Origin: Octopus vulgaris | Taxonomy: Eukaryota | Assembly (NCBI GenBank): GCA_951406725.2 | Contig: CATOCA020000012.1 | Coordinates: 1-64,000 of the forward strand | Direction: 5' to 3' | DNA length: 64,000 nucleotides | Shown here: positions 29,346 to 64,000 of the stretch, piece by piece | How positions within the stretch are numbered: the first letter of the stretch is position 1 | Layout of the letters: the number at the start of each line of letters is the position of its first letter | Position numbers and translations under genes: made by a program | The notes under the pieces: model-generated | Database searches by the model: none | The model's input: the letters and a program-made list of their open reading frames with translations, nothing else | Told to the model about the DNA's origin: nothing

Positions 29346-29365
29346 TGTATATATATGTATATGTT

Positions 29366-34528: not shown

Positions 34529-35008
34529 TATGTATGTACGTATGTGTGTACATATATATAAACGTGTGTGTATATGTAACATATTTCTAAGAATACATAC
34601 ATTCATACATACATCTACATACGCCGTGTGTATGAATGTGTTTCTAAATGTGCATTTATACATGTGTGTGTATTATAAATATATATGTGTGTGTATGTAT
34701 GTGTATGTGTATGCACATATGTATGTATGCATGTATATATGTTTGTATGTATGTATAAATGTATATATATATATTTGTGTGTTTGTATGTGCGCGTATAT
34801 GTGTGTGTATGTATGTATATATATATACATGTGCGTGCATATATATCTGTATAAATGCATATACATGTGCATATATATATGCTTAGACACAAATACATAC
34901 ACGTACAATATATCCGCATATATATATATATATATATGGATAGATTGATAGATAGTTAGATAGATAGATACATGCATACATACACACATTCATACATATA
35001 TACAGACT

Positions 35009-35039
<31 letters not shown>

Positions 35040-35134
35040 CTGTGTGTGTGTGTGTGTGTATAGATAGATATATATATATGCTAACACGTGTATATATACA
35101 CGTAAATAAGTATAAAAATATATGTATGTATAAA

Positions 35135-37960
<2,826 letters not shown>

Positions 37961-37988
37961 ATATGTATATATATATATATATATATAC

Positions 37989-38035
<47 letters not shown>

Positions 38036-39169
38036 GGCAGTTTGTCTGTGCGTGTTTCTGTGTGTCTGTTTTCTCGTACCCTCACTCTGACCACGGCTTT
38101 CAACCGATTCTGATGAAACTTGACACACACATAGCCCAATGTCATAATTCAAAACTAACGTAGCGAAAATTTTGAAAAGTTCCCACAGTTTTTAAAAAAT
38201 TGATAAATTCGACATGGGGTCGAGAATCAGAAACACGAACCACAGACTATCTAGGGGACGCAACTCGAGAATCTAAGCTTTTTTTATGCAACGCATTATC
38301 TATGGTAGTTTTCACAACTTGCAATCGATTTTCACCAAACTCATGGTGAAGCTTAATGTTACCCTAAGAAACTCAATTCTGAAGTTAGTTTTCCATGCAA
38401 TACCTTACCATCAGAAACAGTCGATAAAATCATGCCATTTTGGGAAATCGCGTTCAAATTCAAGATGACATATTTTCGACAATATCTTTCACAAATTGGC
38501 AGGAATTTTTTTTTTTTCACAACGAGCATCATGTCTGCTCCAAGGAGCTATATAGCCCTTTTTATTCCAATAGGATACATTATTGGAAAAAATCGGTTAA
38601 TTTAATCATATGTGGCACACATAGCAAACAAATTTGTGTATTAAACACAAACCAGACTGCCTAGGGGACGCAACTTGACCTTTTTAGCTATCGATAATTC
38701 GATCCAACCAATTCCTACCAGGAAGAAATTACATTCGAGACTTTACCCCCAACACCGCCACTTCTGCTAATAGCTGCTGCAGCCGCAAGTTATTCGAATA
38801 CTTTTTTTGTTTAAACTTTCTTTATAACTACCACCCCAAACGTTTTACCTTCAATTTTTGACGTACCCTAACGGTCCTCGGACGCTACTTGCAAACTCTT
38901 GGTTTATTATAAACCACTTTTGTCGTGTGCATCAAAAAAACTTTTCCTTTCGTTTGTTCAGTTTGATCACTTTTGACTTTTTCGTTGTTGTCACTCACAT
39001 TGCTACCCGCTTTTTGGCCGTTTTTGTACATTTTTATACATTTTCGGATACTTACCCCACGAGCTCCTTTTTATTACACCTTTACCAAACACATTGCTAT
39101 CCACCAAAATACTTACCCCACGTGTTCCTTTTTATTACACCTTTGCCAAACACATTGCTATCCACCAAA

Positions 39170-41777: not shown

Positions 41778-43378
41778 TTTTCAAACAAGATGATGGTCGT
41801 GAACCCCCTCCATTTGATAGATCGGTACCTCCAATGCTTCGATTGATCATCACGCGGGACGAAGTCAAACGTGTTATCCAAGGCATCGATGTCAACAAGG
41901 GTCACGGCCCTGATGGCATACACCCACGGGTTATCAAAGCGTTGGCTCCGGTCATCTGCGAGCCCTTAACACGACTATTCAATATGTCATTGGCGACGGG
42001 TGTTATACCTGCAGACTGGAGAACAGCGATAATCTGCCCAATTTTCAAGACCCGCTTAGCTACCGACCGGTTTCCCTTACATCAATAATCAGCAAGATGT
42101 TCGAAACCATCCTTAAGAAAAGTATGATGCTCCACCTCCTAAACACAGCCTCGATCACTGATTCCCAACACGGCTTCGTGCCGAAGAGATCATGCTTGAC
42201 CAACTTACTAGTAATGGAAGAATTGGTGACGTGCATCCTCGATGATAGTGATGCTGTTGACATCGTTTTATTGGACTTTGCCAAAGCTTTTGACTCGGTA
42301 AACCACCGAGCATATAGTTTCCATCCGGATATTGTACGATGGGTTGGTGCCTTCCTCTCAGATCACTCCTTCCAAGTTCAAGTTAATGGTTCGCGGTCCG
42401 ACGTCTCCAGTGCGAGCAGTGGCGTGCCTCAAGGTTCAGTGCTTGGGCTCTTGTTGTTCTTAGTCTTCATAAATGACTTGCCCGACGACCTCACGCAACA
42501 CACCCTTCTATTTGCCGACGATATCAAACTAGTCGCTCCTCGCGGTAGTATAGAGGATCTTCGTCGATGCCTCCACCAAATTTGGAAGTGGTCTAACGAT
42601 TGGGACATGTGTCTGAACGTGTCAAAGTGTTGTCATCTGCCTGTCGGCTCTACTCCTGCAACTCAACTTGATTTCGAGCCGGGTCGTCTGCTGCTGGAGA
42701 GGACCGATCAGGTAAAGGACCTGGGTATCTTGGTGGATTCCTCCTTATCGCCTTCGGCCCAGTGCGTCCATGCTGCCAACAAAGCGCGCGGAATTCTGTT
42801 TTTGATTCGACGGTCATTCGGAATGCTCACAGCAGCCATATTCCTGCCACTCTATGTCACGCTGGTGAGACCCATATTGGAGTATGGGATTCAAGCCTCT
42901 TCTCCTTATCTTCTCAAAGACATACAGCATCTCGAAAGAGTCCAGAGGCTGGCTACCCGCATGGTTCATGGTCTCAAAAATTTGTCCTACGAAGAAAGGC
43001 TGAGGACGCTCGACCTTTATTCTCTTGAAAAACGCCGCCGCCGCCGTGGTGATCTCATTCTCGCCCACAACATCATAAGCGGAAAGTGTAACCTCTCGAA
43101 AGAGCTGTTCTTCACTCCTGCTCCGGAGCGTCGGCTGCGGGGTCATTCCGAAAAGCTCTACCTGCGACGATTTCATCTCAATCGAAGGAGAGGAGCTTTC
43201 TCCGTCCGGGTTGCGGATCCGTGGAACAAGCTGCCAGACGAGATGGTGAAGATGCCGACGACCGCTTTGTTCAGAGCCTCCCTGGACCTCAAGTGGCCTG
43301 AACTCTTTACATGAACACCACCCTGTACTTAACTCCATGTCCCCCTACATGGCCTTGCTATTTGCTTTTGAGCCAAAT

Positions 43379-43416
<38 letters not shown>
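41778..43416 (+). mobile_element. 5'-truncated CR1-type LINE (LINE C; RT ORF 42097-43314) with (TAAC)n tail, nested in the Helitron ORF
   Basis: GPDGIHPRVIK, LDFAKAFDSV, GVPQGSVLG, FADD, YSLEKRR...RGDLI motifs. Removing it restores the Helitron reading DEVSNY|LAGRYLSSNEA. Confidence 0.94.
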
Positions 43417-45300
43417 CTTGGCTGGCCGGTACCTCAGCAGCAACGAAGCGTTTTGGCGCATTTACGGCAACTTGCTGGTGCAGCTTGCTGTACACTTGGA
43501 AAATGGACAGCGGATTTACTTCACAGAGCAAAGTGCTGTGCAGATAGCCACCAGCCCTAAAGACACAACGTTGACTGGTTTCTTCAAATTATGCCAACGT
43601 GATGACTTCGCTCGAACGCTTTTGTACCCACAGGTCCCATCGTACTTCGTGTGGTCTAAAAACACCTGGGTTCGACGGAAATCCGGCAAAAACGTCGAAG
43701 GCTTCCCAGGCGTCAAGTTTGACTTCTGCCTGGGTCGAGTTTACAACATCCCGCCAAACCAGCAAGAATGCTTCTACCTCCGTCTCCTTCTACATGAGGT
43801 CAATGGTCCAACAGGTTTCGCCAATATACGTACCATCAATGGGGTTCTGTGCGACACCTTCAGGGAAGCATGTATGAGACTTGACCTTCTAGAGGATGAC
43901 TCCCAGTGGGACGCCACGATGGCAGAGGGCGCTTTACTGCAAACGCATTCGGCCCTACGACATCTTTTCGCAATCCTTCTTCAAAAATGTCAGCTTAGTG
44001 ATCCACTAAGTCTCTGGATGAAATACAGGGATGACATGTCGCACGACTTCTTACGTACGGCTCAGCAACACTGCCCTTCTGCCGAGATCACGTTCACCAA
44101 CTTCATTTACAATTTTGCGCTCATTCAACTCGAAGACGCTGTCATCGATATGGGTGGGTCTGCTTTAACAGAGTACGGCCTTCCACCACCCACACGTGAA
44201 CACGCCAATGTTATGTCTGCTGAATTGTTACGCGAAACTTCCTACTGCATTGAGGAACTGCACCAGTACGTCCAAGATAATGAACCACGGCTGCTTCCAG
44301 ACCAGCGCATAGCCTACAACACCATCGTAGACTCTGTCAGACAGCAACGTGGAGGGATTTTCTTCCTTGATGCACCCGGCGGCACTGGCAAAACCTTCGT
44401 CACTAAACTAATTCTGGCAGAGGTCAGACGCAACACGGACATTGCCCTGGCTGTAGCTTCCTCTGGTATCGCGGCCACGTTGCTTCCGGGTGGCAGAACC
44501 GCCCACTCTGCCTTCGACGAGTGCACTATGGCACACAAAGGCGCCCTTGAGGCACTGGACAGGTCCCTGCAAGACATCAGAGACTCTACGGCCCCCATGG
44601 GAGGATTAACTTTACTTCTTTCAGGAGACTTCAGGCAGACTCTAACTGTTATTCCAAAAGGAACCCGTGCCGATGCCGTGTGCGCGTGCCTTAAGTCGTC
44701 AGCTCTTTGGGCACATGTGCGGCCCTTGCACCTCCAAACTAACATGCGCGCGCAGTTAATTGGTGACAGCGGATCCGCTGCATTCTCCAGGGACCTCTTA
44801 TCGCTCGGTGAAAATAGGATGCTGTCTGATGCGGATGGATACGTTCAATTGGACTCACTTTGCACCATTGTCGACACCCCTGTTAGCCTCCGGGACGCTG
44901 TCTTCCACGACCTACAAAACAATTTACGCGACCTAAAATGGCTGGCAGGCAGAGCTATTCTCGCACCCAAAAATACAACCGTCAACTCCATCAATGTGGA
45001 TGTACTAGTATTAATACATACATTTTGCCGATTATCCTGTTGAATTCCTGAATTCAATTGAACCGCCAGGCCTGCCACCACACATCCTGAAGTTAAAAGT
45101 CGGTGCGCCCATTATGCTCATCAGGAATTTGGTTCCACCTAAACAGTGCAACGGCACACGTTTGGTTGTGAAACATTTGGCACCACATTTAATAACGGCC
45201 ACAATACTTACCGGTTGTGGGAATGGAGAGGACGTCTTCATTCCACGGATGCACCTTCAATCCACTTCAGGCGTTCTCAGTTTCCTGTTAAACTCTGCTT
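43417..45300 (+). pseudogene. Helitron Rep/Hel C-terminal part: PIF1-like SF1 helicase, internally deleted and frameshifted
   Basis: GRYLSSNEAFWRI, Walker A DAPGGTGKT, ASSGIAATLL, GDFRQ, AILAPKN and MLIRNL...CNGTRL. TAHSAF is fused directly to DECTM (usual intervening segment missing) and the terminal motifs are absent. Confidence 0.92.
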
Positions 45301-45488
45301 GATGTTTTCATGTTTTCGCCCAAACGGACAGCTAGGAACATCGTATATACAGAAGTATTCCAGTGAAGACAAGACATTGCAACGTCCACATGCACCTTCG
45401 TTCCATGGAGGGAAAGGACTACATTGGGATTAGTCGTTGCCTATTAGGGGCTCTTACATACCCGGGCAACGCCGGGCTATGCTGCTAG

Positions 45489-45708
45489 TATATGTGTGTG
45501 TGTTTGTGTGTCTGTGTTTGTCCCCCTAGCATTGCTTGACAACCGATGCTAGTGTGTTTACGTCACTTAGCGGTTCGGCAAAGTAGACCGATAGAATGAG
45601 TACTAAGCTTACAAAGAATAAGTCCCGGGGTCGATTTGATCGACTAAAGGCGGTGCTCCAGCATGGCCGCAGTCAAAATGACTGAAACAAGTAAAAGAGT
45701 AAAAGAGT
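45489..45708 (+). mobile_element. 3' half of the SINE A split by the Helitron
   Basis: Near-identical to 29730-29940, including the shared variant TTTACGTCACTTAGCGG. Confidence 0.88.
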
Positions 45709-45878
45709 AATATATACATACATATAGATATGTATTTACGTATGTGTGTGTGTATATATATATATATATATACATATAGATATGTATGAACGTATGTGTG
45801 TACATATATATAAACGTGTGTGTATATGTAACATATTTCTAAGAATAGATACATTCATACATACATCTACATATATAT

Positions 45879-45918
<40 letters not shown>

Positions 45919-45939
45919 ACGTAAATACATATCTATATG

Positions 45940-45979
<40 letters not shown>

Positions 45980-46412
45980 TATATATATATAAACTTATAC
46001 ATACATATGCGTGCATATTTCTATTGCATATATAAACATATATATTTATGTGTATACATGCACATACATGTGTGAGTGTACGGCGTCTCAGCTGTGTTCA
46101 ATGTACATACATCTACATACGCCGTGTGTATGAATGTGTTTCTAAATGTGCATTTATACATGTGTGTGTATTATAAATATATATGTGTGTGTGTGTATGT
46201 GTATGTGTATGCACATATGTATGTATGCATGTATATATGTTTGTATGTATGTATAAATGTATATATATATATATATGTGCATAGATATATGCTTACACAC
46301 AAATACATGCACGTACAATATATCCGCATATATATATATATGGATAGATTGATAGATAGTTAGATAGATAGATACATGCATACATACACACATTCATACA
46401 TATATACAGACT

Positions 46413-46447
<35 letters not shown>

Positions 46448-46579
46448 CTGTGTGTGTGTGTGTGTGTATAGATAGATATACATATATGCTAACACGTGTA
46501 TATATACACGTAAATAAGTATAAAAATGTATGTATTAATACTAGTACATGCACATATACATACATCTCTGCGGGACTTC

Positions 46580-47079
46580 ATAATTTGCCAGAAAATAATG
46601 GATCGTGCCAAGATTTTGCTGCTACTTCTAGCATGTAGAAATTACCTGTTAAAGCGTAATTTTCTATTTTGAAATATCTATATATCTATATATTTACTAC
46701 CCACAAGGGGCTAAACATAGAGGGGACAAACAAGGACAGACAAAGGGATTAAGTCGATTACATCGACCCAAGTGCGAAACTGGTACATATATATATTCTT
46801 TTATTCTTTTCTTTTACTTGTTTCAGTCATTTGACTGCGGCCATGCTGGAGCACCGCCATTAGTCGAGCAACTCGACCCCGGGACTTATTCTTTTGCAAT
46901 CCCAGTACTTATTCTATCGGTCTCTCTTGCCGATCGGGGACATTAGCACACCAGCATCGGTTGTCAAGCAATGCTAGGGGACAAACACAGACACACAAAT
47001 ACACACTCAGTGGGACTGAACCCGCAACCATGTGGTTGGTAGACAAGCTACTTACCACACAGCCACTCCTGCGCCTATA

Positions 47080-47152
<73 letters not shown>

Positions 47153-47161
47153 TTATATATT

Positions 47162-47224
<63 letters not shown>

Positions 47225-47435
47225 CTATATATCTATATATCTATACATATGTGTGTGTGTATATATATATATGTAGATGTATATATATATACATATATAA
47301 AAAGATAAAGGTCTTTATTTTTCATGGACTTCAAAATTTGCCAGAAAATAATGGATCGTAGCAATCTTTGCTGCTATTTCTAGCATGTTAAAATTGCATG
47401 TTAAAGGGTAATTTTCTATTTTGAAATATATATAC

Positions 47436-49261: not shown

Positions 49262-51043
49262 TAGATAAACTTAGATATGTTTCGACCAAAGATTGGTCCA
49301 GGCCATGTCTAACTTAATAGCACCACCTGATAGGATTATTCGAATCCTGTTTAAGTCAAGTTTTGTTTAAGTCAAGTTTTGTTCAAGTAGTGAGTTCTTG
49401 TTGGGTGAGTTGTATCCAGTTTTGTTCAAGTAGTGAGTTCTTGTTGGGTGAGTTATATCCAATTATGGGTGGCTTATCTGGTATTCTTTGAAGGAATCTA
49501 TCCAGACTCTGTTTAAAGTTGATGGGATCCTTTTCCTCTTTGATCTCTCTCGGGACAATGTTAAATAGGGCAGGGCCTGTTGAGGAAAAGAAATTGTGCT
49601 GCAGTGTACATGTATGTTGTGATCTTGAATTGGGCAGGGGACGTATAGCCCGTGGTCCAAGTCTTGGATGAACTTGAAGCTAATGTTTAGGTCGTTTGGG
49701 CAAAGTTGACGGTATATTTTCCACATCGTACAAATGATGTACCGCTCACGGCGACGCTGGAGGGAGTAAAGTTTCAAGGCTTTAAGGCGATCCCAATAAT
49801 CGAGAGCAGCCATGCCTTCAATGCGTTTAGTGAGTGCCCTCTGGGGTGACTCAATTCTGGAGATGTTTTGTCTTGTGTGAGGAGACCACAGTGGGCAGCA
49901 GTATTCAAGGTGTGGCCGTACAAAGGAGGAAAAAAGTGATATGATGACACCTTGTTCTCTGGACCGGAAAGTTCTTAAGATCCAGGAACTCATCCTACGA
50001 GCTATATCGACCTTCTTGTTGATGTGTGCACTCCAACTGAGATCGTCATCAACAATTACACCCAGGTCTCTGATATTGTTAGAGGCTGTGAGCGGTTCCC
50101 CTGAAGGAAGAGAGTATGGCTGTTTTAGTGAGGAGTTTCTTCCAAAATGCATCAGCTCAAATTTTCCCTCGTTCAGTTGCATTTTGTTTCTGTCTGCCCA
50201 TTGACTCACAGCATATAGATCAGACTGGAGTTGAGTTCGGTCTGCTTCTTCATTGACGATTTGCTGGAGTTGGTGTCATCAGCAAATATTTTCACTTTGC
50301 AGTAATGTACGACACTGGAAAGGTCGTTTATGTTGATTATGAAGAGTAGCGGACCCAAGACAGTCCCCTGGGGGACACCGCTGGTGACTTTTGCTGGGCT
50401 TGAGTGGACTCCATCAACTACAACATGTGTTCTATTCGCCAGGAAATACTCAATCCAGTGTAGAACTTTTCCACGGATTCCAACATTTGCCAATTTTGAG
50501 AGTAGGATATTATGGTCTACCCTGTCGAACGCTTTACTGAAGTCAAGATATATGACATCAGAGTTCGAACCTGTTCCCAAGGCTTTGAGTACATCTTCAA
50601 TGTGGTGTAAGAGCTGTGTTAGACAGTCCCTGCCACAGCGAAAGCCATGCTGATTTGCATTTAGTAGTTTCTGGGTCTCCAGGAAGTCAGCCATCCTTGA
50701 TCTTAACACTCTTTCAAACACTTTGATGATGTGGGAGGTGAGTGACATTGGGCGATAGTTGAGTGCGAGGGATCCGTTTCCCTGTTTGAAAACCGGGATG
50801 ATTGACTGGGATAGAAACTGTTTTGGTATATAACCTGCATCTAATGAATTCCTCCATAGGTTGGTCAGTGGGACAGCAAGTTGGTGTTTACATTCCTTCA
50901 GGAGACTAACGGGGAATCTATCAGGGCCTACGGCAGAGTAGTATTTGACCTCATTTATTGCTGCTACGATGCCAGTGGGAGTGAAGGTTATGTCTGCAAT
51001 TTTGTGTTGGGAGTCACTAAAGACAGCAGTACTGTTTTTGCAA
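49255..51043 (-). mobile_element. 5'-truncated CR1/L2-group LINE (LINE B) with degenerate RT and intact 3' end
   Basis: ORFs 50206-51192 and 49463-50209 contain VGPDRFP, YLDFSKAFDRV, GVPQGTVLGPLLF, FADD and YSLQRRRERY; tandem CTAAGTTTAT tail on the minus strand. Confidence 0.92.
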
Positions 51044-51384
51044 TATATATAGAGAGAGAAACATGTATATACATATAGATATTTATATATATGTATATGT
51101 GTGTATGTTTCGGTGTCCCCAAAACCGCTGGACAACCAATGCCGGTGTTTTTTACACTCCATTAACTTATCCGTTCGGGAAAAGAAGACCAACAGAATTA
51201 ATACTAGACTGACGCAGATAAAAGTCTTAGTGTCGATTTGCTCTAGAAAAGGCTGTGCTCCAGCATTGGCACAGTGAAATGACTAAACAAGGAAAAGAGT
51301 AAAAGTGTATGCGTTACGTCTGAACATTGTATTGTAGAGTTAATTAGCTTCCATAATACATTTTGATGATAGTTGTCATGTAAC

Positions 51385-51735
51385 TAAATGTAAGGGAGGT
51401 AACTTTTGAAGATTTTTAGTTATCAACCTTTCTAGAGTTACTCCTTGAATATTATAATTTAACAATAGATAATAGTAATTTAATTAGATGTAAGGGAAGT
51501 AACTCTGGAAGATTTTAAAGTTATCTTCCTTCGTAGAGTTACTTACCTTGCATATTTAATAATATGCAAGGGGGAGTAACTCTAGAAAGGGCAATAATTA
51601 AAAAATCTTCCAGAGTTAACTCCCTTACATCTAATAAAATTAATATTATCTATTGTTAAATTATAATATTCAAGGGGAGTAACTCTAGAATGGGAAATAG
51701 GTACAAAATTTTCCAGAGTTACTTCCTTACATTGT
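51385..51735. repeat. AT-rich ~100-bp hairpin repeat (AAGGGAGGTAACTCT motif)
   Basis: Repeated AAGGGAGGTAACT/AAGGGGAGTAACTCT and reverse-complement AGAGTTAC..CCCTT motifs; homologous to 54357-55020. Confidence 0.85.
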
Positions 51736-51754
51736 AACGTAATAACGTTACAAT

Positions 51755-51830
51755 TAGGGTTTAGGGTTAGGTTGGGGTTAGGGTTTAAGGTTAGGGTTAG
51801 TGTTTAAGGTTAGGGGTTGGGGTTAAGGGT
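51755..51830 (+). repeat. Short degenerate telomeric tract (TTAGGG)n
   Basis: TTAGGGTTTAGGGTTAGGTTGGGGTTAGGG..., about 12 units. Confidence 0.9.
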
Positions 51831-51969
51831 TCTTCAAGAGCTGCACTTAATGTTGCGTGTGTCCGTGTTTCTGGGTCGCAATTTTTGAACCATTCGTAAA
51901 GCATCAGGTAGACTTGTTTTACAGCGTCAATAGACTCATCATCAATTTTCAGTTCAGTTGTATCAACTC
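51831..51969 (-). pseudogene. Truncated exon of a probable death-domain protein
   Basis: Splice acceptor TTTTTTTAG at 51971-51970, then GVDTTELKIDDESIDAVKQVYLMLYEWFKNCDPETRTHATLSAALEE. The ML..W...T...L..AL pattern fits death-domain C-terminal helices (from recall). It ends abruptly at the telomeric tract. Confidence 0.6.
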
Positions 51970-52595
51970 CTAAAAAAATAGCTGCGAAATACGCAACAAT
52001 AAGAAATAAATGCAACAACCTTAACAATATTAACAATAATATAAAAGATGTGTGTTGTTATAAACATAACAAAGAAACTATTTCAAGAGAGAAATATAAA
52101 AAATATAGCTAAGAAACAAGAAAACTATAAGACGTTGTTATTTATATCTTTATAAATCCGAGTAAAATTACATAATGGATTTTAAAAAAACAAAGAAAAA
52201 ATGAAATAAAATTTATGTTCCTGAAACAAAAAAGTGAAACAGAATGTATACTCATACGTGTGTGTATTGTGTCGATGTATATATAATAAAAAAACAGTCT
52301 ATATATTTATACTGGCGACAAGTGCGAGTGTCAATAGTTTATTATACATTGATTCGTATATGGCTTCCTTTATTGAATTCTAATTCAGAAAGATTGAAAT
52401 CAATTCACTATTCACGAGTGAGTTCATATTCTTATGTATATGTACATATAAACACATTAAACAAGAAAGAATGTCTTTATGTATTGTCATGCGTGTGTTT
52501 ATATGTGTGTGTGTGTGTTATATTAGTTCTCAACAAGACATATTGGTACAAGGTTATCAAGGTAACAATGTCTTTATTATTATTATTATTATTAT

Positions 52596-52683
52596 TACGT
52601 TCTGAGTTCAAATTCCGCCGAGGGGTCCTACCGGGGTCGATTAAATAAGTACCAGTTACGCGCTGGGGTCGATGTAATCGAAT
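52596..52683 (+). mobile_element. SINE B fragment
   Basis: TTCTGAGTTCAAATTCCGCCGAGG...GTACCAGTTACGCGCTGGGGTCGATGTAATCGA. Confidence 0.8.
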
Positions 52684-52847
52684 TCTGGTTTGCACGCACA
52701 ACGGTAGGAACCTAGGAAATTCTGACATATGGCACCATAACGACAAGGATTCCTTAAACACTCGTTGATGTCTGAAAAATGAAGCAGAAATTTTATTATT
52801 TTCAAAATTATTTGAAGCAAAGAAAGAGTATTTCAATGGAAATTGAG

Positions 52848-53258
52848 CCCTAACTCTACCCCTAACCCCTAACCCGAACCCCTTCTGTAACACTGAACCC
52901 CGAGACCACTTCTGTGACCACCCGAGACCCCATCTGTGACCCCACTTCTAGAGACTAACCCAAACCCCTGACCATGTGAGTCCCTCATCCCTGTGACAAG
53001 CGAGACCCCTTCCTGTGCCCAACCAATTCCGGAGACCCCACCAATTCCCGAGACTAACACTAGCCCTAACTCTAACCCGAACCCATTCTGTAACCCTGAA
53101 CCCCCGAGACCACTTTTGTGACCACCAGAGACCCCATCTGTGACCCAAATTCCAGAGACTAACCCAAACCCCTGACCATGTGAGCCCCTCATCCCTGTGA
53201 CAAGCGAGACCCCTTCCTGTGAACCAAAACAAATTCCCGAGACCCAACAAATTCCCGA
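52848..53258. repeat. C-rich telomere-associated repeat, two copies of a ~200-bp unit
   Basis: AACCCGAACCC...GAGACC...TGTGACC...CCCTCATCCCTGTGACAAGCGAGACCCCTTCCTGTG present twice. Confidence 0.88.
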
Positions 53259-53792
53259 CCCTAACCCTAACCCTAACCCGAACACCACGAATTCCCGAGA
53301 CTAACCCTAACCCTAACCCTAACCCGAACACCACGAATTCCCGAGACTAACCCTAACCCTAACCCTAACCCGAACACCACGAATTCCCGAGACTAACCCT
53401 AACCCTAACCCTAACCCGAACACCACAAATTCCCGAGACCAACCCTAACCCTAACCCTAACCCTAACCCTAACCCAACTAACCCTAACCCTAACCCTAAC
53501 CCTAACCCTAACCCTAACCCAACCTAACCCTAACCCTAACCCTAACCCTAACCCTAACCCAACCCTAACCCTAACCCTAACCCTAACCCTAACCCACAAC
53601 CCCAACCCTAACCCTAACCCTAACCCTAACCCTAACCCTAACCCAAACCCTAACCCAACCCTAACCCTAACCCTAACCCTAACCCTAACCCCAACCCAAC
53701 TAACCCTAACCCTAACCCTAACCCGAACACCACAAATTCCCGAGACTAACCCTAACCCTAACCCTAACCCGAACACCACAAATTCCCGAGAC
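53259..53792. repeat. 46-bp higher-order unit with embedded telomeric repeats, interleaved with (CCCTAA)n
   Basis: AATTCCCGAGACTAACCCTAACCCTAACCCTAACCCGAACACCACG/A repeated at ~53290-53440 and ~53720-53792. Confidence 0.9.
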
Positions 53793-54357
53793 TTAACCCT
53801 AACCCTAACCCTAACCCTAACCCTAACCCTAACCCTAACCTACTAACCCAACCCAAACCCCAACCCCAACCCTAACCCAACCCAACCCCAACCCAACCCA
53901 ACCCTAACCCTAACCCTAACCCTAACCCTAACCCTAACCCTAACCCTAACCCTAACCCTAACCCTAACCCTAACCCAACCCCAACCCTAACCCTAACCCT
54001 AACCCTAACCCAACCCTAACCCTAACCCAACCCTAACCCAACCCTAACCCTAACCCAACCCAACCCTAACCCTAACCCTAACCCTAACCCTAACCCTAAC
54101 CCTAACCCTAACCCTAACCCTAACCCTAACCCTAACCCTAACCCTAACCCTAACCCTAACCCTAACCCTAACCCTAACCCTAACCCTAACCCTAACCCTA
54201 ACCCCAACCCTAACCCTAACCCCAACCCAACCCAACCCAACCCCAACCCAACCAACCCTAACCCTAACCCTAACCCTAACCCTAACCCTAACCCTAACCC
54301 TAACCCTAACCCTAACCCTAACCAACCCCAACCCAACCCAACCCTAACCCAACCCTA
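53793..54357 (-). repeat. Interstitial telomeric array (CCCTAA)n
   Basis: Long runs of perfect CCCTAA with CCCAA/CCCCAA variants. Confidence 0.97.
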
Positions 54358-55022
54358 AGATAACTAAACCCAAAACTCTTCCAGGGTTACCTCCCTTACA
54401 TCTAATTAAATTACTATTATGTATTATTAAATTGAAATGTTCAAGGGAAGTAACTCTAGAAAGGGAGATAACTAAAAAAAAATCTCCCAGTTACCTCCCT
54501 TACATCTAATTCAATTACTATTATTTGTTATTAAATTAATGTATTCAAGGGGAGTAACTCTAGGAAGGGAGATTTACTCCCCTTGAATACTTCAATTTAA
54601 TAACACAATAGTAATTTAATTAGATAAAGGGAGGTAACTCTGGAAGATTTTTTTTAGTTATCTCCCTTTCTAGAGTTACTCCCCTTGAACATTTCAATTT
54701 AATAATACATATTAATTTAATTAGATGTAAGGGAGGTAACTCTGGAAGATTTTTTAGTTCTCTACAGAGGAAGATAACTAAAAAATCTTCCAGAGTTACC
54801 TCCCTTATATCTAATTAAATTACTATTATGTATTATTAAATTGAAATGTTCAAGGGGAGTAACTCTAGAAAGGGAGATAACTAAAAGATCTTCCAGAGTT
54901 ACCTCCCTTACATCTAATTGAATTACTAATATGTATTATTAAATTGAAATATTCAAGGGGAGTAAATCTCCTAGAGATATATAAAAAAATCTTCAAAAGT
55001 TACCTCCCTTACATTTAATTAA
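54358..55022. repeat. AT-rich ~100-bp hairpin repeat in forward/inverted/forward blocks
   Basis: Unit AGAGTTACCTCCCTT-(~45 nt AT)-AAGGGGAGTAACTCT-AGAAAGGGAGATAACT; orientation flips near 54570 and 54765. Confidence 0.88.
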
Positions 55023-55354
55023 ATAACGACTATTATCAAACTGTGTCATGGAAGCTAATTAACTCTACAATATAATGTTCAGACGTAACACTTTTACTCC
55101 TTTCCTTGTTTAGTCATTTCAATGTGCCCATGCTGGAGCACAGCGTTTTCTAGAGCAAATCGACACTAGGACTTTTATCTACGTCAGTCTAGTATTTATT
55201 CTGTTGGTCTTCTTTTCCCGAACGGATAGGTTAATGGAGTGTAAAATTCACCGACATCGCTTGTGAAACGGTTTTGGGGACATCGAAACACACACATATA
55301 TACATATATATAAACATCTATATGTATATACATGTTTCTCTCTCTATATATATA

Positions 55355-56203
55355 TTGCAGAAACAATACTGCTGTCTTTAGTGTTCCCACTGATATTGAC
55401 GTAAGAGAAGCGAACGAAGTTGACTCCCAACACAAAATTGCAGACATAACCTTCACTCCCTCTGACATCGTAGCAGCAATAAATGAGGTCAAATACTACT
55501 CTGCTGTAGGCCCTGATAGATTCCCCGTTAGTCTCCTGAAGGAATGTAAACACCAACTTGCAGTCCCACTGACCAACCTCTGGAGAAATTCGTTAGATGC
55601 AGGTATATACCAAAACAGTTTCTATCCCAGTCAGTCATCCCGGTTTTCAAACAGGGAAACAGATCCCTCGCACTCAACTATCGCCCAATCTCACTCACCT
55701 CCCACATCATAAAAGTGTTTGAAAGGGTGTTAAGATCAAGGATGGCTGACTTCCTGGAGACCCACAAACTCCTATATGCAAATCAGCATGGCTTTCGCTG
55801 TGGCAGGGACTGTCTAACACGGCTCTGACACCACATTGAAGATGTACTCAAAGCCTTGGGAACAGGTTCGAACTCTGATGTCATATATCTTGACTTCAGT
55901 AAAGCGTTCGACAGGGTAGACCATAATATCCTACTCTCAAAATTGGCAAATGTTGGAATCCGTGGAAAAGTTCTACACTGGATCAAGTATTTCCTGGCGA
56001 ATACAACACAACATGTTGTAGTTGATGGAGTCCACTCAAGCCAAGCAAAAGTCACCAGCGGTGTCCCTCAGGGGTCTGTCTTGGGTCCGCTACTCTTCAT
56101 AATCTACATAAACGACCTTTCCAGTGTCGTACATTACTGCAAAGTGAACATATTTGCTGATGACACCAAGCTCCAGCAAATCGTCAATGAAGAAGCAGAC
56201 CGA
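55355..56203 (+). pseudogene. LINE B RT fragment (duplicate of ~50236-51043), 3'-truncated
   Basis: YLDFSKAFDRV, GVPQGSVLGPLLF, FADD. Same 5' junction as the 51043 copy; frameshift near 55605 and a premature stop near 55827. Confidence 0.9.
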
Positions 56204-57194
56204 TCCAGGTATGTAGATACGGGGTGCTTAACACTCGCAAATCTGGAGTCACTAAAGGTGCAATTGAACTTCTTTTCATTTAGAACTTAGGGATCTGCAA
56301 ATGTCGGTATCTTAGAGATGCTTAAAGTGTTTGTTCTAGCTGTAATTGTCGCATACAAACAGACGCTCACACACGTATACACAGAAATAAAAACATTCAC
56401 ACAAACACAAACACTGAAATGAAAACAGTTACATACCTACACATGCACACACACAAATAGAAATGAAAATAGTCACACACAAACATACGCACCCACACAG
56501 AAATGAAAACGCAGTTACACATTCACACATAAAACCCTAACTAGCATAAACATACAATTTATTCAGAATGTAGAGGGGCATTGGGTGCTTTGCACTCGCA
56601 GTTAGAATATCAGCTCCCTCCACGCCAGAATTAGAATTTCTGTCATCCACTTGTGAAATTAATACATTGACGACACATGGGAAAAATATGAGCAACATCT
56701 GAAGCCACTAAAGGTGCAATAAATTGAACTTATTTGTATTAGTAGTTAGTGATATATGAATATCGACGTAGGAATGGCTGTTGTAAGTAGTTTGCTTACG
56801 AACCACATGGTTTCGGGTTCATTCCCACTGCCTGTCATCTTCTGCAATTGTTACTATTGTAGCCCAGGGCCTAGCTAATCCTTGTGATGGGATTTAGTGG
56901 AAGGAAATTGATAGAATCTCGTCGTATATACGTTTAAATGTGTGTGTGTGTGTGCATGTGTGTGTGTGTGTGTGTGCGTGTGTGCGTGTGTGCGTGCGTG
57001 CGTGTGTTTGTGTGTGTCTGTGTATGTTCGCACTCGAAGGGCACACGAGAATGCACGCACGTACTATCACACATACAGATGCAAGTTTTCTTAATAAAAC
57101 GGAATGAACTCCCATTCCATCCCTTACAGTTTCTTTTTTGTTTTAGATACTACATATACGTGTGTTGGTATATTCACGTATATCTGTATGTATA

Positions 57195-57260
<66 letters not shown>

Positions 57261-57894
57261 TATATATATAAATATATATACGACGCTATGTACGACATAT
57301 AAATACACAAACACATACATGTGTGTGTGTGTGTGTATATATGAAGGTGCAATAAATTGACTTATTTTGATTTAGTATTTAGTGATCACAAATGTGGGTA
57401 TCTTACAAATGGTCAAAGTGTTTGTTGTAGTTGTAAGTGACGTACACACAAACAAATAGAAAAACTCAGTCGCTCACACACTCGCGCACACAGAAATAAA
57501 AACTCTCACACACAAACACTGAAATGAAAATACCCACACTCACATAAATAAAAACAGTCCCCCACACACAAGGAGCCCCAATAGGTCTATCAAAAAAGTT
57601 TCTAGTATTTTTCCTGGCCCATAATTTATGATAATTGAAATTCTTACAATAAATAAATAACTACTAAATAAGTATATCGAACATTACATCCCCGTAACTT
57701 ATCGGTTCTGCAAAAGAGACCTATACATTAAGTAATAGGCATACAAAGAATAATTTCTGGGCTTGATTTGCTTCACTAAAGGCGGTGCTCCACCATGGTC
57801 GCAGTGAAATAACGGAAAGAGTCTAAGAGCGACAAAGCGTATATTACGATAACTACATACTTAAGGGAGATAACTACTTAAGGGAGGTAATTAC

Positions 57895-60800
57895 GTGGCC
57901 CTGAATTACATGCACCTGAATGTCCTGCCCCTTAATTACATGGCCCTGAATTACATGGCCCTGAATTACATGACCCTGTATTACCTGCCCTTGAATTACC
58001 TGTACCTGAGTTACATGTCCCTGAATTACATGCACCTGAATTACCTGCCCGTCAATTACCTTCCCCTGAATTACATATCCCTGAATTACATGTCCCTGAA
58101 TGACATTCCTCTAAATTACCAACCGCTGCATTACCTGCCCCTGGATTACATTACCCCTGAATTACCCGCCCCTGAATTACATGCCCGAATTACATGCCCC
58201 TGAATTTCATGCCCCTGAATTAACTGCCCCTCAATTACCTGCTCCTTAATTACATGGCCCTGAATTTCCTGCCCCTTAATTACATGCCCCTGTATTACCT
58301 GCCCTTGAATTACCTGCCCCTGAGTTACATGTCCCTGAATTACCTGCCCCTCAATTACCTTTCCCTGAATTACATGCCCCTGAATTACATGTCCCGGAAT
58401 TATCTGCCAATGAATGACATTCCTCTAAATTACCTGCCCCTGAATTACATACCCCTGAATTACCTTCCCCTAAATTACATGCATCTGAATTACCTGCCCC
58501 TGAATTACAAACACCTGAATTAGATGCCCCTGAATTACCTGCCCCTCAATTACATGCACATGAATGACCTGACCCTGAATGATATGCCCCTCAATTATCT
58601 ATCCCTAAATTACCTGCCCCGGAATTACCTGCCCGTGAATGTCATGCCCCTGGATTAACTGCCCCTGAATTACATGCCCCTGAATAACATACACCAGAAT
58701 AAGATACACCTGAATTACCTGCCCCAAAATTAAATACCCCTGAATTACCTGCCCCTAAATTACATGCATCTGAATTACATGGCCCTGAATTATCTGCCCC
58801 TCAATTACATGCCTCTTAATTACATGCACCTGTATGACCTGACCCTGAATTATCTATCCCTAAATTACCTGCCCATGAATTACCTGCCCGTGAATGACAT
58901 GCCCCTGAATTACCTGCACCTAGATTACCTGCCCCAGAATTACATGCCCCTGAATTACCTGCCCATGAATGACATTCCTCTAAATTACCTGTCCCTGAAT
59001 TACCTTCCTCTGAATTACCCACCCATGAATTACATGCCCCTGAATTACATGCCCCTGAATTACCTACCCCTGAATTAACTACCCCTCAATTACATGCCCC
59101 TGGATTACCTAACCCAGAATTACATGCACCTGGATTACCTAACCCAGAATTACATGCACCTGAATTACATGCCCCTTAATTACATGCCCCTGAATTACCT
59201 GCACCTGAATGACATGCCCCTGAATTACCTCCCCCTGAATTACCATCCCCTGAATTTCATGCCCATGAATTACCTGCCCCTGAATGACCTGCCCCTTAAT
59301 TACATACCCCTGGATTACCTGTCCCTGAATAACCTATACCTGAATAACCTGACACTCAATAATCTGCCCCTGAAGTTCCTGCCCCTAAATTACCTTCCCC
59401 TGAATTACATGCCCCTGAATTACCTGCCCATGAATTACATGCACCTGAATTACATGCCCCTGAATTACATACACCTGAATTACCTGCCCCTGAGTCTGAA
59501 TTACCTGCTCCTGAATTACATACACCTGAATTACATGCCTTTGAATTAACTGCCCCTAAATTATGGGCCCCTGAATTACCTGTCGCTGAATGACATGCCC
59601 CTCAATCACCAGCCCATGAATGACATTCCTATAAATTACCTGTCCCTGAATTACCCCTGAATTACCTTCCCCTGAATTACCTGCCCCTGAATTACCTGCC
59701 CCTCAATCACCTGCGCATGAATGACATCCCTATAAATTACCTTTCCCTGAATTACCCCTGAATTACACTCTAAATTACCGGCCCCTGAATTACATGCCCC
59801 TGAATTACATGCCCCTGATTACCTGCCCCTAAATTACCTGCCCATGAATGACATTCCTCTAAATTACCTGTCCCTGAATTACCCCTGAATTACCTTCCCC
59901 TGAAATATATTGCTCTGAATTACCCACCCACGAATTACATGCCCCTGAATTACCTACCCCTGAATTACATACACCTGAATTACATGCCCCTCAATTACCT
60001 GCACCTCAATTACATGCCCCTGAATTACATGCACCTGAATTACCTGCACCTGAATTACATGGCCCTGAAATACATTGCTCTGAATTCCCCACCAACGAAT
60101 TACATGCCCTTGAATTACATGCCCCTGAATTACCTTCCCCAGAATTACATACATCTGAATTACATGCCCCTCAATTACCTGCACCTCAATTCCATGCCCC
60201 TGAATTACATGCCCCTGAATTACATAAACCCTGAATTACCTGCCCCTCAATTACCTGCGTCTGAATTACCTTGCTCTGAATGACATGCCCCTTAATTACT
60301 TAACCCTGAAGTACCTGCCCCTGAATTACCTGCCACTAAATTACATGCATCTAAATTACATGCATCTGAATTACCTGCCCCTGAATTACAAACACCTGAA
60401 TTACATGACCCTGAATTACCTGCCCCTCAATTACATGTCTCTTAATTACATGCACCTGAATGACCTGCCCCTGAATGACATGTCTCTGAATTGTCTATCC
60501 CTAAATTATCTGCCCCTGAATTACCTGCCCGTGAATGACATACCCCTGAAATACCTGCACCTAGATTACCTGCCCCTGAATTACATTTCATCTGAATTAC
60601 CTGCCCATGAATGACATTCCTATAAATTACCTGTCCCTAAATTACCCCTGAATTACATTCCTCTGAATTACCTGCCCCTGAATTACCTGCCCCTGGATTA
60701 CCTTCCCCTCAATTACCCGCCCATGAATTACATGCCCCTGAATTAAATGCCCCTGAATTACATACATCTGAATTATCAGCTCCTGAATTACATGCCCCTG

Positions 60801-61341
60801 AATTATCTGCCTCTGAGTCCCTGAATTACATGCCCGTGAATTACCTGCCCCTCAATTACCTACCCATGAATTACATACACCTGAATTACCTGCCCGTGAA
60901 TTACCTGCCCCTAAAATACATGCCCCTGAATGACATGCCCCTCAATTACCTGCCCATGAATTACATGCCCCTGAACTACCTGCCCCTTAATTACATGTCC
61001 CTGAATTATCTGCCAATGAATGACATACCTCTAAATTACCTGCCCCTGAATTACATACCCCTGAATTACCTGCCTCTAAATTACTACATGCATCTGAATT
61101 ACCTGCCCCTGAATTACAAACACCTGAATTACCTGCCCCTCAATTACATGCCTCTTAATTACATGCACATGAATGATCTGACCCTGAATGATATGCCCCT
61201 GAATTATCTATCCCTAAATTACCTGCCCGGAATTACCTGCCAGTGAATGACACACCTCTGGATTAACTGCCCCTGAATAACCTGCCCCTGAATAACATAC
61301 ACCTGAATTACCTTCCCCAGAATTACATGCCCCTGAATTAC
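57895..61341. repeat. 15-bp C-rich minisatellite (CCCTGAATTACMTGC)n, roughly 230 copies, running into an assembly gap
   Basis: Strict 15-bp periodicity; gives spurious LNY(M/L)P pentapeptide ORFs. Confidence 0.97.
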
Positions 61342-61441
61342 NNNNNNNNNNNNNNNNNNNNNNNNNNNNNNNNNNNNNNNNNNNNNNNNNNNNNNNNNNN
61401 NNNNNNNNNNNNNNNNNNNNNNNNNNNNNNNNNNNNNNNNN
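61342..61441. other. Assembly gap (100 N)
   Basis: Run of exactly 100 N, typical of an unsized scaffolding gap. Confidence 0.99.
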
Positions 61442-61665
61442 AACCCTAACCCTAACCCTAACCCAACCCCAACCTTAACCCTAACCCCAACCCAACCCCA
61501 ACCCTAACCCTAACCCCAACCCAACCCTAACCCTAACCCTAACCCTAACCCTAACCCTAACCCTAACCCTAACCCTAACCCTAACCCTAACCCTAACCCT
61601 AACCCTAACCCTAACCCTAACCCTAACCCTAAACCCTAAACCCTAACCCTAACCCAACCCCAACC

Positions 61666-61706
<41 letters not shown>

Positions 61707-61851
61707 CCCTAACCCTAACCCCAACCCTAACCCTAACCCTAACCCTAACCCCAACCCTAACCCTAACCCCAACCCTAACCCTAACCCTAACCCTAACCCT
61801 AACCCTAACCCCTAACCCTAACCCTAACCCTAACCCTAACCCTAACCCTAA
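61442..61851 (-). repeat. Telomeric array (CCCTAA)n at a contig start
   Basis: About 410 bp of nearly pure CCCTAA immediately after the gap. Confidence 0.97.
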
Positions 61852-64000
61852 TTTAATAATATGCGAGGGGAGTAACTCTAGAAAGGGAGATAACTAAAAA
61901 AAACTCTTCCAGGGTTACCTCCCTTACATCTAATTAAATTACTATTATGTATTATTAAATTGAAATGTTCAAGGGAAGTAACTCTAGAAAGGGAGATAAC
62001 TAAAAAAAATCTCCCAGTTACCTCCCTTATATCTAATTCAATTACTATTATTTGTTATTAATTTAATGTATTCAAGGGGAGTAACTCTAGGAAGGGAGAT
62101 TTACTCCCCTTGAATACTTCAATTTAATAACACAATAGTAATTTAATTAGATAAAGGAGGTAACTCTGGAAGATTTTTTAGTTATCTCCTTTCTAGAGTT
62201 ATCCCTTGAACATTTCAATTTAATAATACATATTAATTTAATTAGATGTAAGGGAGGTAACTCTGGAAGATTTTTTAGTTCTCTACAGAGGAAGATAACT
62301 AAAAAATCTTCCAGAGTTACCTCCCTTATATCTAATTAAATTACTATTATGTATTATTAAATTGAAATGTTCAAGGGGAGTAACTCTAGAAAGGGAGATA
62401 ACTAAAAGATCTTCCAGAGTTACCTCCCTTACATCTAATTGAATTACTAATATGTATTATTAAATTGAAATATTCAAGGGGAGTAAATCTCCTAGAGATA
62501 TATAAAAAAATCTTCAAAAGTTACCTCCCTTACATTTAATTAAATAACGACTATTATCAAACTGTGTCATGGAAGCTAATTAACTCTACAATATAATGTT
62601 CAGACGTAACACTTTTACTCCTTTCCTTGTTTAGTCATTTCAATGTGCCCATGCTGGAGCACAGCGTTTTCTAGAGCAAATCGACACTAGGACTTTTATC
62701 TACGTCAGTCTAGTATTTATTCTGTTGGTCTTCTTTTCCCGAACGGATAGGTTAATGGAGTGTAAAATTCACCGACATCGCTTGTGAAACGGTTTTGGGG
62801 ACATCGAAACACACACATATATACATATATATAAACATCTATATGTATATACATGTTTCTCTCTATATATATATTGCAGAAACAATACTGCTGTCTTTAG
62901 TGTTCCCACTGATATTGACGTAAGAGAAGCGAACGAAGTTGACTCCCAACACAAAATTGCAGACATAACCTTCACTCCCTCTGACATCGTAGCAGCAATA
63001 AATGAGGTCAAATACTACTCTGCTGTAGGCCCTGATAGATTCCCCGTTAGTCTCCTGAAGGAATGTAAACACCAACTTGCAGTCCCACTGACCAACCTCT
63101 GGAGAAATTCGTTAGATGCAGGTATATACCAAAACAGTTTCTATCCCAGTCAGTCATCCCGGTTTTCAAACAGGGAAACAGATCCCTCGCACTCAACTAT
63201 CGCCCAATCTCACTCACCTCCCACATCATAAAAGTGTTTGAAAGGGTGTTAAGATCAAGGATGGCTGACTTCCTGGAGACCCACAAACTCCTATATGCAA
63301 ATCAGCATGGCTTTCGCTGTGGCAGGGACTGTCTAACACGGCTCTGACACCACATTGAAGATGTACTCAAAGCCTTGGGAACAGGTTCGAACTCTGATGT
63401 CATATATCTTGACTTCAGTAAAGCGTTCGACAGGGTAGACCATAATATCCTACTCTCAAAATTGGCAAATGTTGGAATCCGTGGAAAAGTTCTACACTGG
63501 ATCAAGTATTTCCTGGCGAATACAACACAACATGTTGTAGTTGATGGAGTCCACTCAAGCCAAGCAAAAGTCACCAGCGGTGTCCCTCAGGGGTCTGTCT
63601 TGGGTCCGCTACTCTTCATAATCTACATAAACGACCTTTCCAGTGTCGTACATTACTGCAAAGTGAACATATTTGCTGATGACACCAAGCTCCAGCAAAT
63701 CGTCAATGAAGAAGCAGACCGATCCAGGTATGTAGATACGGGGTGCTTAACACTCGCAAATCTGGAGTCACTAAAGGTGCAATTGAACTTCTTTTCATTT
63801 AGAACTTAGGGATCTGCAAATGTCGGTATCTTAGAGATGCTTAAAGTGTTTGTTCTAGCTGTAATTGTCGCATACAAACAGACGCTCACACACGTATACA
63901 CAGAAATAAAAACATTCACACAAACACAAACACTGAAATGAAAACAGTTACATACCTACACATGCACACACACAAATAGAAATGAAAATAGTCACACACA
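61852..64000 (+). repeat. Near-identical second copy of the telomere-adjacent segment 54358-56480 (offset ~7.5 kb)
   Basis: Same hairpin repeats, SINE fragment, LINE fragment and downstream sequence; ORFs 55856-56290 and 63375-63809 have the same translation. Confidence 0.96.
62874..63722 (+). pseudogene. LINE B RT fragment, third copy
   Basis: Same sequence and breakpoints as 55355-56203. Confidence 0.9.

What the first reader, a model, noticed from the sequence alone, without database searches (positions are those of the whole stretch)
51385..61900. Three different telomere-repeat junctions in the same AT-rich hairpin repeat: possible breakage/telomere-addition hotspot
Seen: all three telomeric tracts abut the AAGGGAGGTAACTCT hairpin block, at different nucleotides: CCCTAA|GATAACTAAA (54357), CCCTAA|TTTAATAATATGCGAGGGGAG (61851, ~38 bp further out) and ...GTTACAA|TTAGGG (51755, next to the palindrome TTGTAACGTAATAACGTTACAA). 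Inference: independent breaks at a cruciform-prone block, healed by telomerase. A more speculative reading is a cis-signal for de novo telomere addition, analogous to ciliate Cbs or nematode elimination motifs; I know of no such report in molluscs.
Basis: partly seen in the sequence, partly recalled or inferred. Interest (0 to 1): 0.75.

Follow-up and report, generated by a model that had tools for sequence, protein, structure and literature searches.

The report
Telomere-capped copies of one foldback repeat
Three telomere-repeat tracts do sit against a strongly hairpin-forming repeat in this likely octopus DNA, but they cap three copies of one duplicated segment (two of them almost identical), so they likely record ordinary chromosome-end truncation, healing and copying, and are unlikely to mark a programmed breakage signal.

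Summary
The three junctions are real (coordinates within 1 nt) and the block folds far better than shuffles (z -25 and -31). They are not three independent sites. Each tract caps the same segment: LINE fragment, SINE, then a 103-bp-unit foldback block. Copies B and C match at 2109 positions with 3 substitutions and 8 short gaps; B lacks 37 nt at the junction, and C opens a contig after a 100-N gap. Copy A is an older inverted duplicate (flank 95%). Contigs of one public run show a large family (873 laid) in which copies run past junction C into non-telomeric DNA. Six motif copies in the window lie 3.5-41 kb from any tract, four inside Helitron-like elements. Best reading: a likely subtelomeric duplicon with one to three truncation events, later copied and internalised. 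A recurrent hairpin-break hotspot stays possible (about 0.2); a Cbs/SFE-like signal fails its testable features (about 0.03). Reads could not map junctions genome-wide. No earlier scan finding bears on it.

The parts
50237..51384 (-). Flank of copy A: LINE reverse-transcriptase fragment, microsatellite, diverged SINE; inverted relative to B and C
   Evidence: Self-BLAST 50237-51726 against 56203-54630; 1077 matches, 52 substitutions against B flank = 95.4%
51385..51733 (.). Block A: one palindrome with arms of about 170 bp and a 4-nt loop at 51557-51560
   Evidence: Fold z -25.4; perfect 11-bp arms at the tip; arms 85.8% identical
51731..51754 (.). Perfect 10-bp hairpin with 4-nt loop, ending at the telomeric junction
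   Evidence: such a hairpin ends at 4 of 930 other block positions tested and 0 of 2407 flank positions
51754..51830 (+). Tract A: short degenerate TTAGGG-like tract, interstitial
   Evidence: 76 nt, 32% of bases in perfect TTAGGG; followed by about 1 kb of non-telomeric DNA
52848..53800 (-). Telomere-associated variant repeats (204-bp and about 35-50-bp units) on the far side of tract B
   Evidence: purity falls to 0-0.4 beyond about 900 nt from junction B
53259..54358 (-). Tract B: about 1.1 kb of TTAGGG with many TTGGG variants, interstitial
54359..55030 (+). Block B: about 6.5 copies of a 103-bp unit, two of them inverted (about 54570-54763)
   Evidence: inverted part 96.8% like the following direct units
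55030..56481 (+). Flank of copy B: diverged SINE, microsatellite, LINE fragment (RVT_1 at 55829-56287)
   Evidence: Pfam RVT_1 E 3e-18; identical to C's flank except one 2-nt microsatellite gap
57889..61341 (.). 15-bp satellite whose unit resembles the motif; runs into the gap
   Evidence: 231 copies, 74% matches; motif-like matches
61342..61441 (.). 100-N scaffold gap
61442..61851 (-). Tract C: 410 nt of TTAGGG, opening the contig
   Evidence: 51 of 69 parsed units perfect
61852..62550 (+). Block C: block B plus 37 nt at the telomeric side; begins with a sequence matching the tip of palindrome A
62550..64000 (+). Flank of copy C, cut by the window end

Best explanation
The three tracts cap three copies of one duplicated segment (LINE fragment, SINE, foldback minisatellite block), which is likely a subtelomeric duplicon whose hairpin-rich outer end was likely truncated and joined to telomeric repeats one to three times and then likely copied and internalised by recombination. 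Shown: shared flank; B and C near-identical; B is C minus 37 nt; A is a diverged inverted copy; the block is a 103-bp unit array with a palindrome (A) and an inner inversion (B, C); the family is large in run X1 and some copies continue without telomeric repeats. Inferred: a broken G-rich 3' end folded back on a 4-bp stem and primed the palindrome of A; telomerase added TAGGG onto a single T at each end (all three junctions share one T with the expected block sequence), or a deletion brought an existing tract next to the block; tracts A and B were later buried by fusion or break-induced copying. No programme or dedicated signal is needed.
For: B versus C: 2109 matches, 3 substitutions, 8 gaps over 2.1 kb. 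A versus B flank 95.4%. Run X1: 873 contigs laid on 967 nt; a 125-nt contig matching 62412-62535 with 0 substitutions and 1 gap has depth 703, against 31-194 for the other 7 pieces shown; the A-type base at 62562 makes 2600 of 3608 summed depth; 7 contigs run on before 61854 with the other palindrome arm; a joint of depth 1154 continues into 61856 from a direct unit (all). Interstitial position and decay of tracts A and B. 6 of 33 motif copies far from tracts. Precedent: terminal truncation, healing on 1-4 nt seeds including a single T, and internalised tracts in Magnaporthe (PMC7367193, passages); foldback inversions from short-loop hairpins, one resolved by telomere addition, in yeast (PMC7467729, passages).
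Against: No genome was available, so subtelomeric location is inferred, not mapped. Copy number from contig depth is an inference that the tool itself warns against. A's junction follows a perfect hairpin that is rare elsewhere and C's lies 2-3 nt from a tip-like sequence, which fits repeated hairpin-linked breaks better than random truncation. Telomere-bearing records may have been filtered as human-like and only 8 of 62 loose-end rows were shown, so many more junctions could exist unseen. Three raw-read runs with the same species label gave only 3, 6 and 0 reads, far fewer than a large family predicts. Tract A is much more degenerate (32% perfect) than 5% flank divergence would predict for a simple aged telomerase product.
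Confidence: 0.6

Rival explanations
1. Recurrent hairpin-break hotspot: the block extrudes cruciforms, is cut near hairpin tips, and is healed by telomerase again and again across the family, so the three junctions are samples of many.
For: Very stable foldback. A: hairpin tip, 10-nt arm, then telomeric repeats. C: 14 nt identical to A's tip, junction 2-3 nt outside the loop; 7 X1 contigs carry both arms at this place. All three junctions have the same phase, a shared T then TAGGG.
Against: B has no tip at its junction and is C minus 37 nt. C's start also fits a direct-unit form of depth 1154 in X1 over 10 nt, and C is no closer to A's right arm (86.8%) than to its left arm (88.2%). 0 of 8 loose ends shown were telomeric (54 not shown, filter caveat). 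In AT-rich DNA a shared T is the expected microhomology.
Confidence: 0.22
2. Assembly artefact: C is a redundant haplotig or contig end of locus B (or a paralogous chromosome end scaffolded here), and the B junction is a consensus blend of reads, so only A and C are real junctions.
For: C starts right after a 100-N gap; 7 of 8 gaps and all 3 substitutions lie in the first 330 nt, mostly in homopolymers, then about 1.8 kb differ only by one 2-nt microsatellite gap. B has a telomere-like CCC inside an A-run about 12 nt into the block and TTGGG-rich repeats at the junction. No B-type joint appears among the X1 rows shown, while 2 contigs run over an end of the stretch, by inference the telomeric end since the last bin has depth 0.
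Against: Depth 703 for the B/C-type segment suggests many real near-identical copies, so B and C may be true paralogues. What lies outside the tracts differs (variant repeats versus gap). Filtered or unshown rows could hide the B joint.
Confidence: 0.12
3. Programmed signal: the motif directs developmental breakage and new telomere addition, like Tetrahymena Cbs or Oscheius SFE.
For: Motif is 15 bp, degenerate, arranged in inverted pairs, and 27 of 33 copies lie within 700 nt of a tract. Three raw-read runs lack most of the repeat that X1 holds; tissues are unknown.
Against: Junctions lie inside the motif (B), about 10 nt before one (C) and about 20 nt beyond one (A). 27 copies persist uncut on the retained side. 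Tracts A and B have DNA beyond them and have decayed, which fits inherited arrangements. The read shortfall includes the flank that would be retained (1 read in 3 runs on 62494-62625, about 1.1 expected per copy per run if the genome is 2.8 Gb). The motif sits in Helitron-like elements far from tracts.
Confidence: 0.03
4. The block is a foldback or rolling-circle-derived mobile repeat that landed in, or carries, telomere-like repeats; no break was healed here.
For: Long modular inverted arms in A. Motif next to the 3' hairpin and CTAG end of non-autonomous Helitrons. The same 18-mer is part of a dispersed inverted repeat in 10 contigs of one marine metagenome, with no telomeric run.
Against: The three copies share more than 1 kb of flank on one side, so they are not separate insertions. 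No tract continues on the other side of any block. Unit-to-Helitron alignment is weak: 40 and 8 of 500 shuffles reach the score.
Confidence: 0.05

Closest known systems
Unstable subtelomeric element arrays with interstitial telomeres (Magnaporthe MoTeR arrays, PMC7367193; yeast Y' and human subtelomeric duplicons recalled)
   Same: One multi-copy segment next to telomeric repeats at variable truncation points; single-T seeds; internalised tracts; near-identical copies.
   Different: The segment here is a decayed LINE/SINE/minisatellite patchwork, not a telomere-targeting retrotransposon (its RT fragment hits generic CR1-like proteins); no instability was observed directly.
Foldback inversions and de novo telomere addition at breaks in yeast (PMC7467729, PMC3974649)
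   Same: Short-loop hairpin at the centre of an inverted duplication (A, loop 4 nt); telomeric repeats at the end of the duplicated arm.
   Different: A's arms are 14% diverged, so the event is old or assembled from different units; no break was observed.
Tetrahymena Cbs (PMC5182062) and Oscheius SFE (bioRxiv 10.64898/2026.03.06.709695)
   Same: Short degenerate motif near telomere junctions; inverted symmetry as in SFE.
   Different: No fixed cut position, motif retained in many copies, tracts interstitial and decayed, motif also in transposon-like elements, no germline/soma evidence.
Helitron and Helentron/HINE non-autonomous elements (PMC4067079, PMC7492417)
   Same: Motif in inverted pairs and beside a 3' palindrome in window elements; satellite starting at an inverted motif pair.
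   Different: The block itself has no GC-rich 3' palindrome and no defined ends; descent from these elements is suggested, not shown.

Membership tests
Subtelomeric duplicon with telomere junctions | Several copies share sequence well beyond the repeat block | tested here: met
   2.1 kb at about 99.9% (B, C); 1.1 kb at 95.4% (A)
Subtelomeric duplicon with telomere junctions | G-rich strand of each tract points away from the shared segment | tested here: met
   3 of 3
Subtelomeric duplicon with telomere junctions | Multi-copy in the genome | tested here: inconclusive
   high in X1 (873 contigs, depths 703-1154) but 3, 6 and 0 reads in X21-X23
Subtelomeric duplicon with telomere junctions | Copies map to chromosome ends | not testable with these tools
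   No genome held; only C starts a contig with telomeric repeats
Programmed breakage signal (Cbs, SFE) | Telomere added at a fixed place relative to the motif (5-25 bp each side of Cbs; centre of SFE) | tested here: not met
   Three different positions in the 103-bp unit; definitions
Programmed breakage signal (Cbs, SFE) | Motif lost or cut at the healed end, not left intact in retained DNA | tested here: not met
   27 relaxed-motif copies remain on the retained side
Programmed breakage signal (Cbs, SFE) | Motif restricted to break sites | tested here: not met
   6 of 33 copies 3.5-41 kb from tracts, 4 in Helitron-like elements
Programmed breakage signal (Cbs, SFE) | Junctions somatic, absent from germline | not testable with these tools
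   Runs are coded, tissue unknown; no read spanned a junction
Programmed breakage signal (Cbs, SFE) | Motif necessary and sufficient when moved | not testable with these tools
   Needs transgenesis
Foldback inversion healed by telomerase | Short-loop palindrome at or near the junction | tested here: inconclusive
   Met for A, ambiguous for C, not met for B
Foldback inversion healed by telomerase | Perfect repeats directly at the junction | tested here: inconclusive
   C yes (first 6 units perfect); B 1 full TTAGGG among first 7 units after the junction unit's TAGGG; A mostly variant
Helitron/HINE element (for the block) | Defined ends with 3' GC-rich palindrome and CTRR, or subTIR modules | tested here: not met
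   Present in elements at 10317-10692, 29150-29346 and 38027-45490 but not in the block
Helitron/HINE element (for the block) | Homology of the unit to the element's end | tested here: inconclusive
   40 and 8 of 500 shuffles reach the alignment scores

The most novel reading that the evidence does not exclude
A Helitron-derived inverted motif has become a cleavage and telomere-addition signal in an octopod, so that chromosome ends are cut back within this block during development, the first such case in molluscs. A milder version, a genome-wide family of hairpin-tip fragile sites repeatedly healed by telomerase without any programme, has probability about 0.2 and would merit about 0.5.
Probability: 0.03. 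Interest if true: 0.9.

Novelty: new member of a known kind. Interest (0 to 1): 0.25.

Why it matters
As best explained, it is a first look at a likely octopod subtelomeric duplicon and a warning that telomere-led contigs and near-identical copies inflate counts of independent junctions. Cephalopod chromosome ends are little described (searches found no description of this repeat). If long reads showed many tip-linked junctions it would be a natural animal example of hairpin-driven end turnover; if they showed soma-specific junctions it would extend programmed elimination with telomere healing to molluscs, which the search and the review passages did not report.

Tried and rejected
Whole-genome search: no genome held. 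Metagenome scan with a 26-nt block pattern: 0 matches. An 18-nt pattern gave 24 loci, none similar to the window at E below 1e-6, and 0 of 24 with two tandem telomeric hexamers in the flanks held; 14 look like chance or unrelated matches. Raw reads X21-X23: 3, 6 and 0 laid, all 9 only partly, none across a junction, so no test of staggered or soma-specific junctions. The idea that junction B coincides with an inversion breakpoint in the unit (within about 4 nt) was dropped: the two inner turns come from one inversion and the chance of such closeness in a 103-bp unit with several breakpoints is about one in three (rough estimate, no call). The idea that A and C are reciprocal products of one break was dropped, as both hold the same arm. 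A telomere-targeting LINE was not supported (best named identity 61% to an Argonauta protein, weak support for a cephalopod host). Scan look-ups gave nothing relevant. Window 45701-47399 was not read base by base. Supplements of the papers were not consulted.
Full report
Setting. The window is repeat-rich animal DNA. Its SINE-like repeats look like those of Octopus (recalled, no call); the LINE fragment's highest identity among named hits is 61% to an Argonauta protein, which is weak support. TTAGGG is the telomere motif reported for a cephalopod (PMC13218726, passages). No genome was held.

Observation. All three junctions exist. A: TTAGGG starts at 51754 after a perfect 10-bp hairpin. B: CCCTAA ends at 54358. 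C: CCCTAA ends at 61851, 37 nt further out in the block than B. The 15-mer has 27 matches with up to 2 mismatches against 0.09 expected. Blocks B and A fold with z -31.3 and -25.4.

Independence. Self-comparison shows that each tract caps the same segment: block, short spacer, diverged SINE, microsatellite, LINE fragment. B and C agree at 2109 positions with 3 substitutions and 8 gaps; all but one gap fall in the first 330 nt, mostly in homopolymers. C begins a contig after a 100-N gap. A is inverted and its flank is 95.4% identical to B's. So there are two lineages, and B versus C is one 37-nt difference that may be a second healing event, a deletion, an allele or a consensus error. B also has CCC inside an A-run about 12 nt into the block and TTGGG-rich repeats at its junction, which raises doubt about that junction.

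Anatomy. The block is an array of a 103-bp unit with three motif copies in alternating orientation. In B and C two inner units are inverted (96.8% like the direct units). A is one palindrome with arms of about 170 bp, 85.8% identical, and a 4-nt loop at 51557-51560; the sequence at the tip is what a 3' end folding back on a 4-bp stem would give (inference). After the second arm come the 10-bp hairpin and the tract. A hairpin of that size ends at 4 of 930 other block positions and 0 of 2407 flank positions tested. C starts with 14 nt identical to A's tip, 2-3 nt outside the loop, but it is no closer to one arm of A than to the other (86.8% and 88.2%) and also fits a direct-unit form seen in X1. 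B has no tip at its junction. All three junctions share one T with the expected block sequence and continue TAGGG (for A the expected sequence is inferred from symmetry). Tract A is 76 nt, 32% perfect, and followed by non-telomeric DNA. Tract B is purest in its first 900 nt from the block and decays into variant repeats away from it, the reverse of a working telomere (normal layout recalled). Both are interstitial in this assembly.

Other copies. Of 24 runs listed four were laid on 61834-62800. Contigs of X1: 873 laid (126 at 99% or more, 76 at 95-99, 312 at 90-95, 359 below 90). A 125-nt contig matching the B/C block end has depth 703; the other 7 of 8 pieces shown have 31-194, suggesting about 10-20 copies (inference; the tool warns that depth is no copy number). 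The A-type base at 62562 makes 2600 of 3608 summed depth, so A-type flanks are common too. Seven contigs run on before 61854 with the other palindrome arm, and a joint of depth 1154 enters 61856 from a direct unit: copies pass junction C without telomeric repeats. None of 8 loose ends shown was telomeric, but 54 were not shown and human-like records are filtered, so telomeric junctions may be hidden. Two contigs run over an end, by inference the telomeric one. Against a large family, raw-read runs X21-X23 gave 3, 6 and 0 reads, and 1 read on the non-SINE flank where about 1.1 per copy per run is expected for an assumed 2.8-Gb genome. X1 may be the source sample and is then not independent. The shortfall is unexplained (population or species difference, filtering, library bias); it includes the side that elimination would retain.

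The motif elsewhere. A relaxed motif has 33 matches; 27 in the blocks, 6 at 3.5-41 kb from a tract. Four of the six lie in non-autonomous Helitron-like elements, three of them beside the 3' hairpin; the 376-bp element at 10317-10692 shares 241 nt of 5' end and 35 nt of 3' end with a Rep/helicase Helitron at 38027-45490 (Helitron end features from PMC4067079, passages). Two stand at the start of the 15-bp satellite. In metagenome contigs an 18-mer version occurs in 24 loci, 10 from one marine assembly; 7 of these were aligned and share a dispersed inverted-repeat context; 0 of 24 have tandem telomeric hexamers. Descent of the block from Helitron ends is suggested but weak (40 and 8 of 500 shuffles).

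Mechanism. Most likely (0.6): a subtelomeric duplicon whose foldback-prone outer end was truncated and joined to telomeric repeats one to three times, then copied and internalised. Precedents are Magnaporthe chromosome ends (PMC7367193, passages) and yeast foldback inversions (PMC7467729, passages; PMC3974649, abstract). A recurrent tip-cleavage hotspot (0.22) differs only in frequency and cannot be excluded without a junction map. Assembly redundancy (0.12 as the main story) may explain B versus C under any reading. A programmed signal (0.03) fails three testable features drawn from Cbs (PMC5182062, passages) and SFE (bioRxiv 10.64898/2026.03.06.709695, abstract and first part of Discussion): fixed cut position, loss of the motif, restriction to break sites.

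Novelty. Searches (listings only) and passages of a review (PMC9292451) showed no description of this repeat and no programmed breakage with telomere healing in molluscs; the library lacks most subscription papers and supplements were not read. PMC7492417 (passages) describes HINE elements with subterminal repeats and satellites in oyster. The scan's own notes held nothing relevant. Verdict: new member of a known kind, interest 0.25.

Noticed in passing
window:38027-45490: Near-complete Rep/helicase Helitron (Helitron_like_N, STPR, PIF1) interrupted by a LINE fragment at about 41790-43400 ending in (TAAC)n; ends in hairpin plus CTAG.
   Followed up: partly
window:10317-11073: Two tandem copies of a 382-bp non-autonomous Helitron sharing both ends with the element at 38027-45490.
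   Followed up: partly
window:57858-61341: The 15-bp satellite resembles the motif and begins at two 17-bp motif copies in opposite orientation, like a HINE subterminal module followed by central repeats.
   Followed up: partly
window:52848-53800: Telomere-associated variant repeats (204-bp dimer, 35-50-bp units with TTCGGG) oriented as an inverted subtelomere; A and B tracts point towards each other across a 1-kb spacer.
   Followed up: partly
window:61834-62800 (runs X21-X23 versus X1): More than tenfold shortfall of reads for block and flank in three runs with the same species label as X1; possible large copy-number difference between populations or cryptic species, or a technical effect.
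   Followed up: partly
window:4300-27400 and 35000-38000: Tandem units of about 5.6-6 kb made of SINEs and microsatellites, about 90% alike.
   Followed up: no
window:1-3136: Satellite of 114-119-bp units, about 27 copies.
   Followed up: no
window:28530-28788: 259-bp element with long terminal inverted arms (91% self-complementary), MITE-like.
   Followed up: no
L002, L003, L007, L011, L012, L013, L021, L023, L024: In one marine metagenome assembly the same 18-mer forms one arm of a dispersed short inverted repeat, tandemly amplified in L003 and L021; host unknown.
   Followed up: partly
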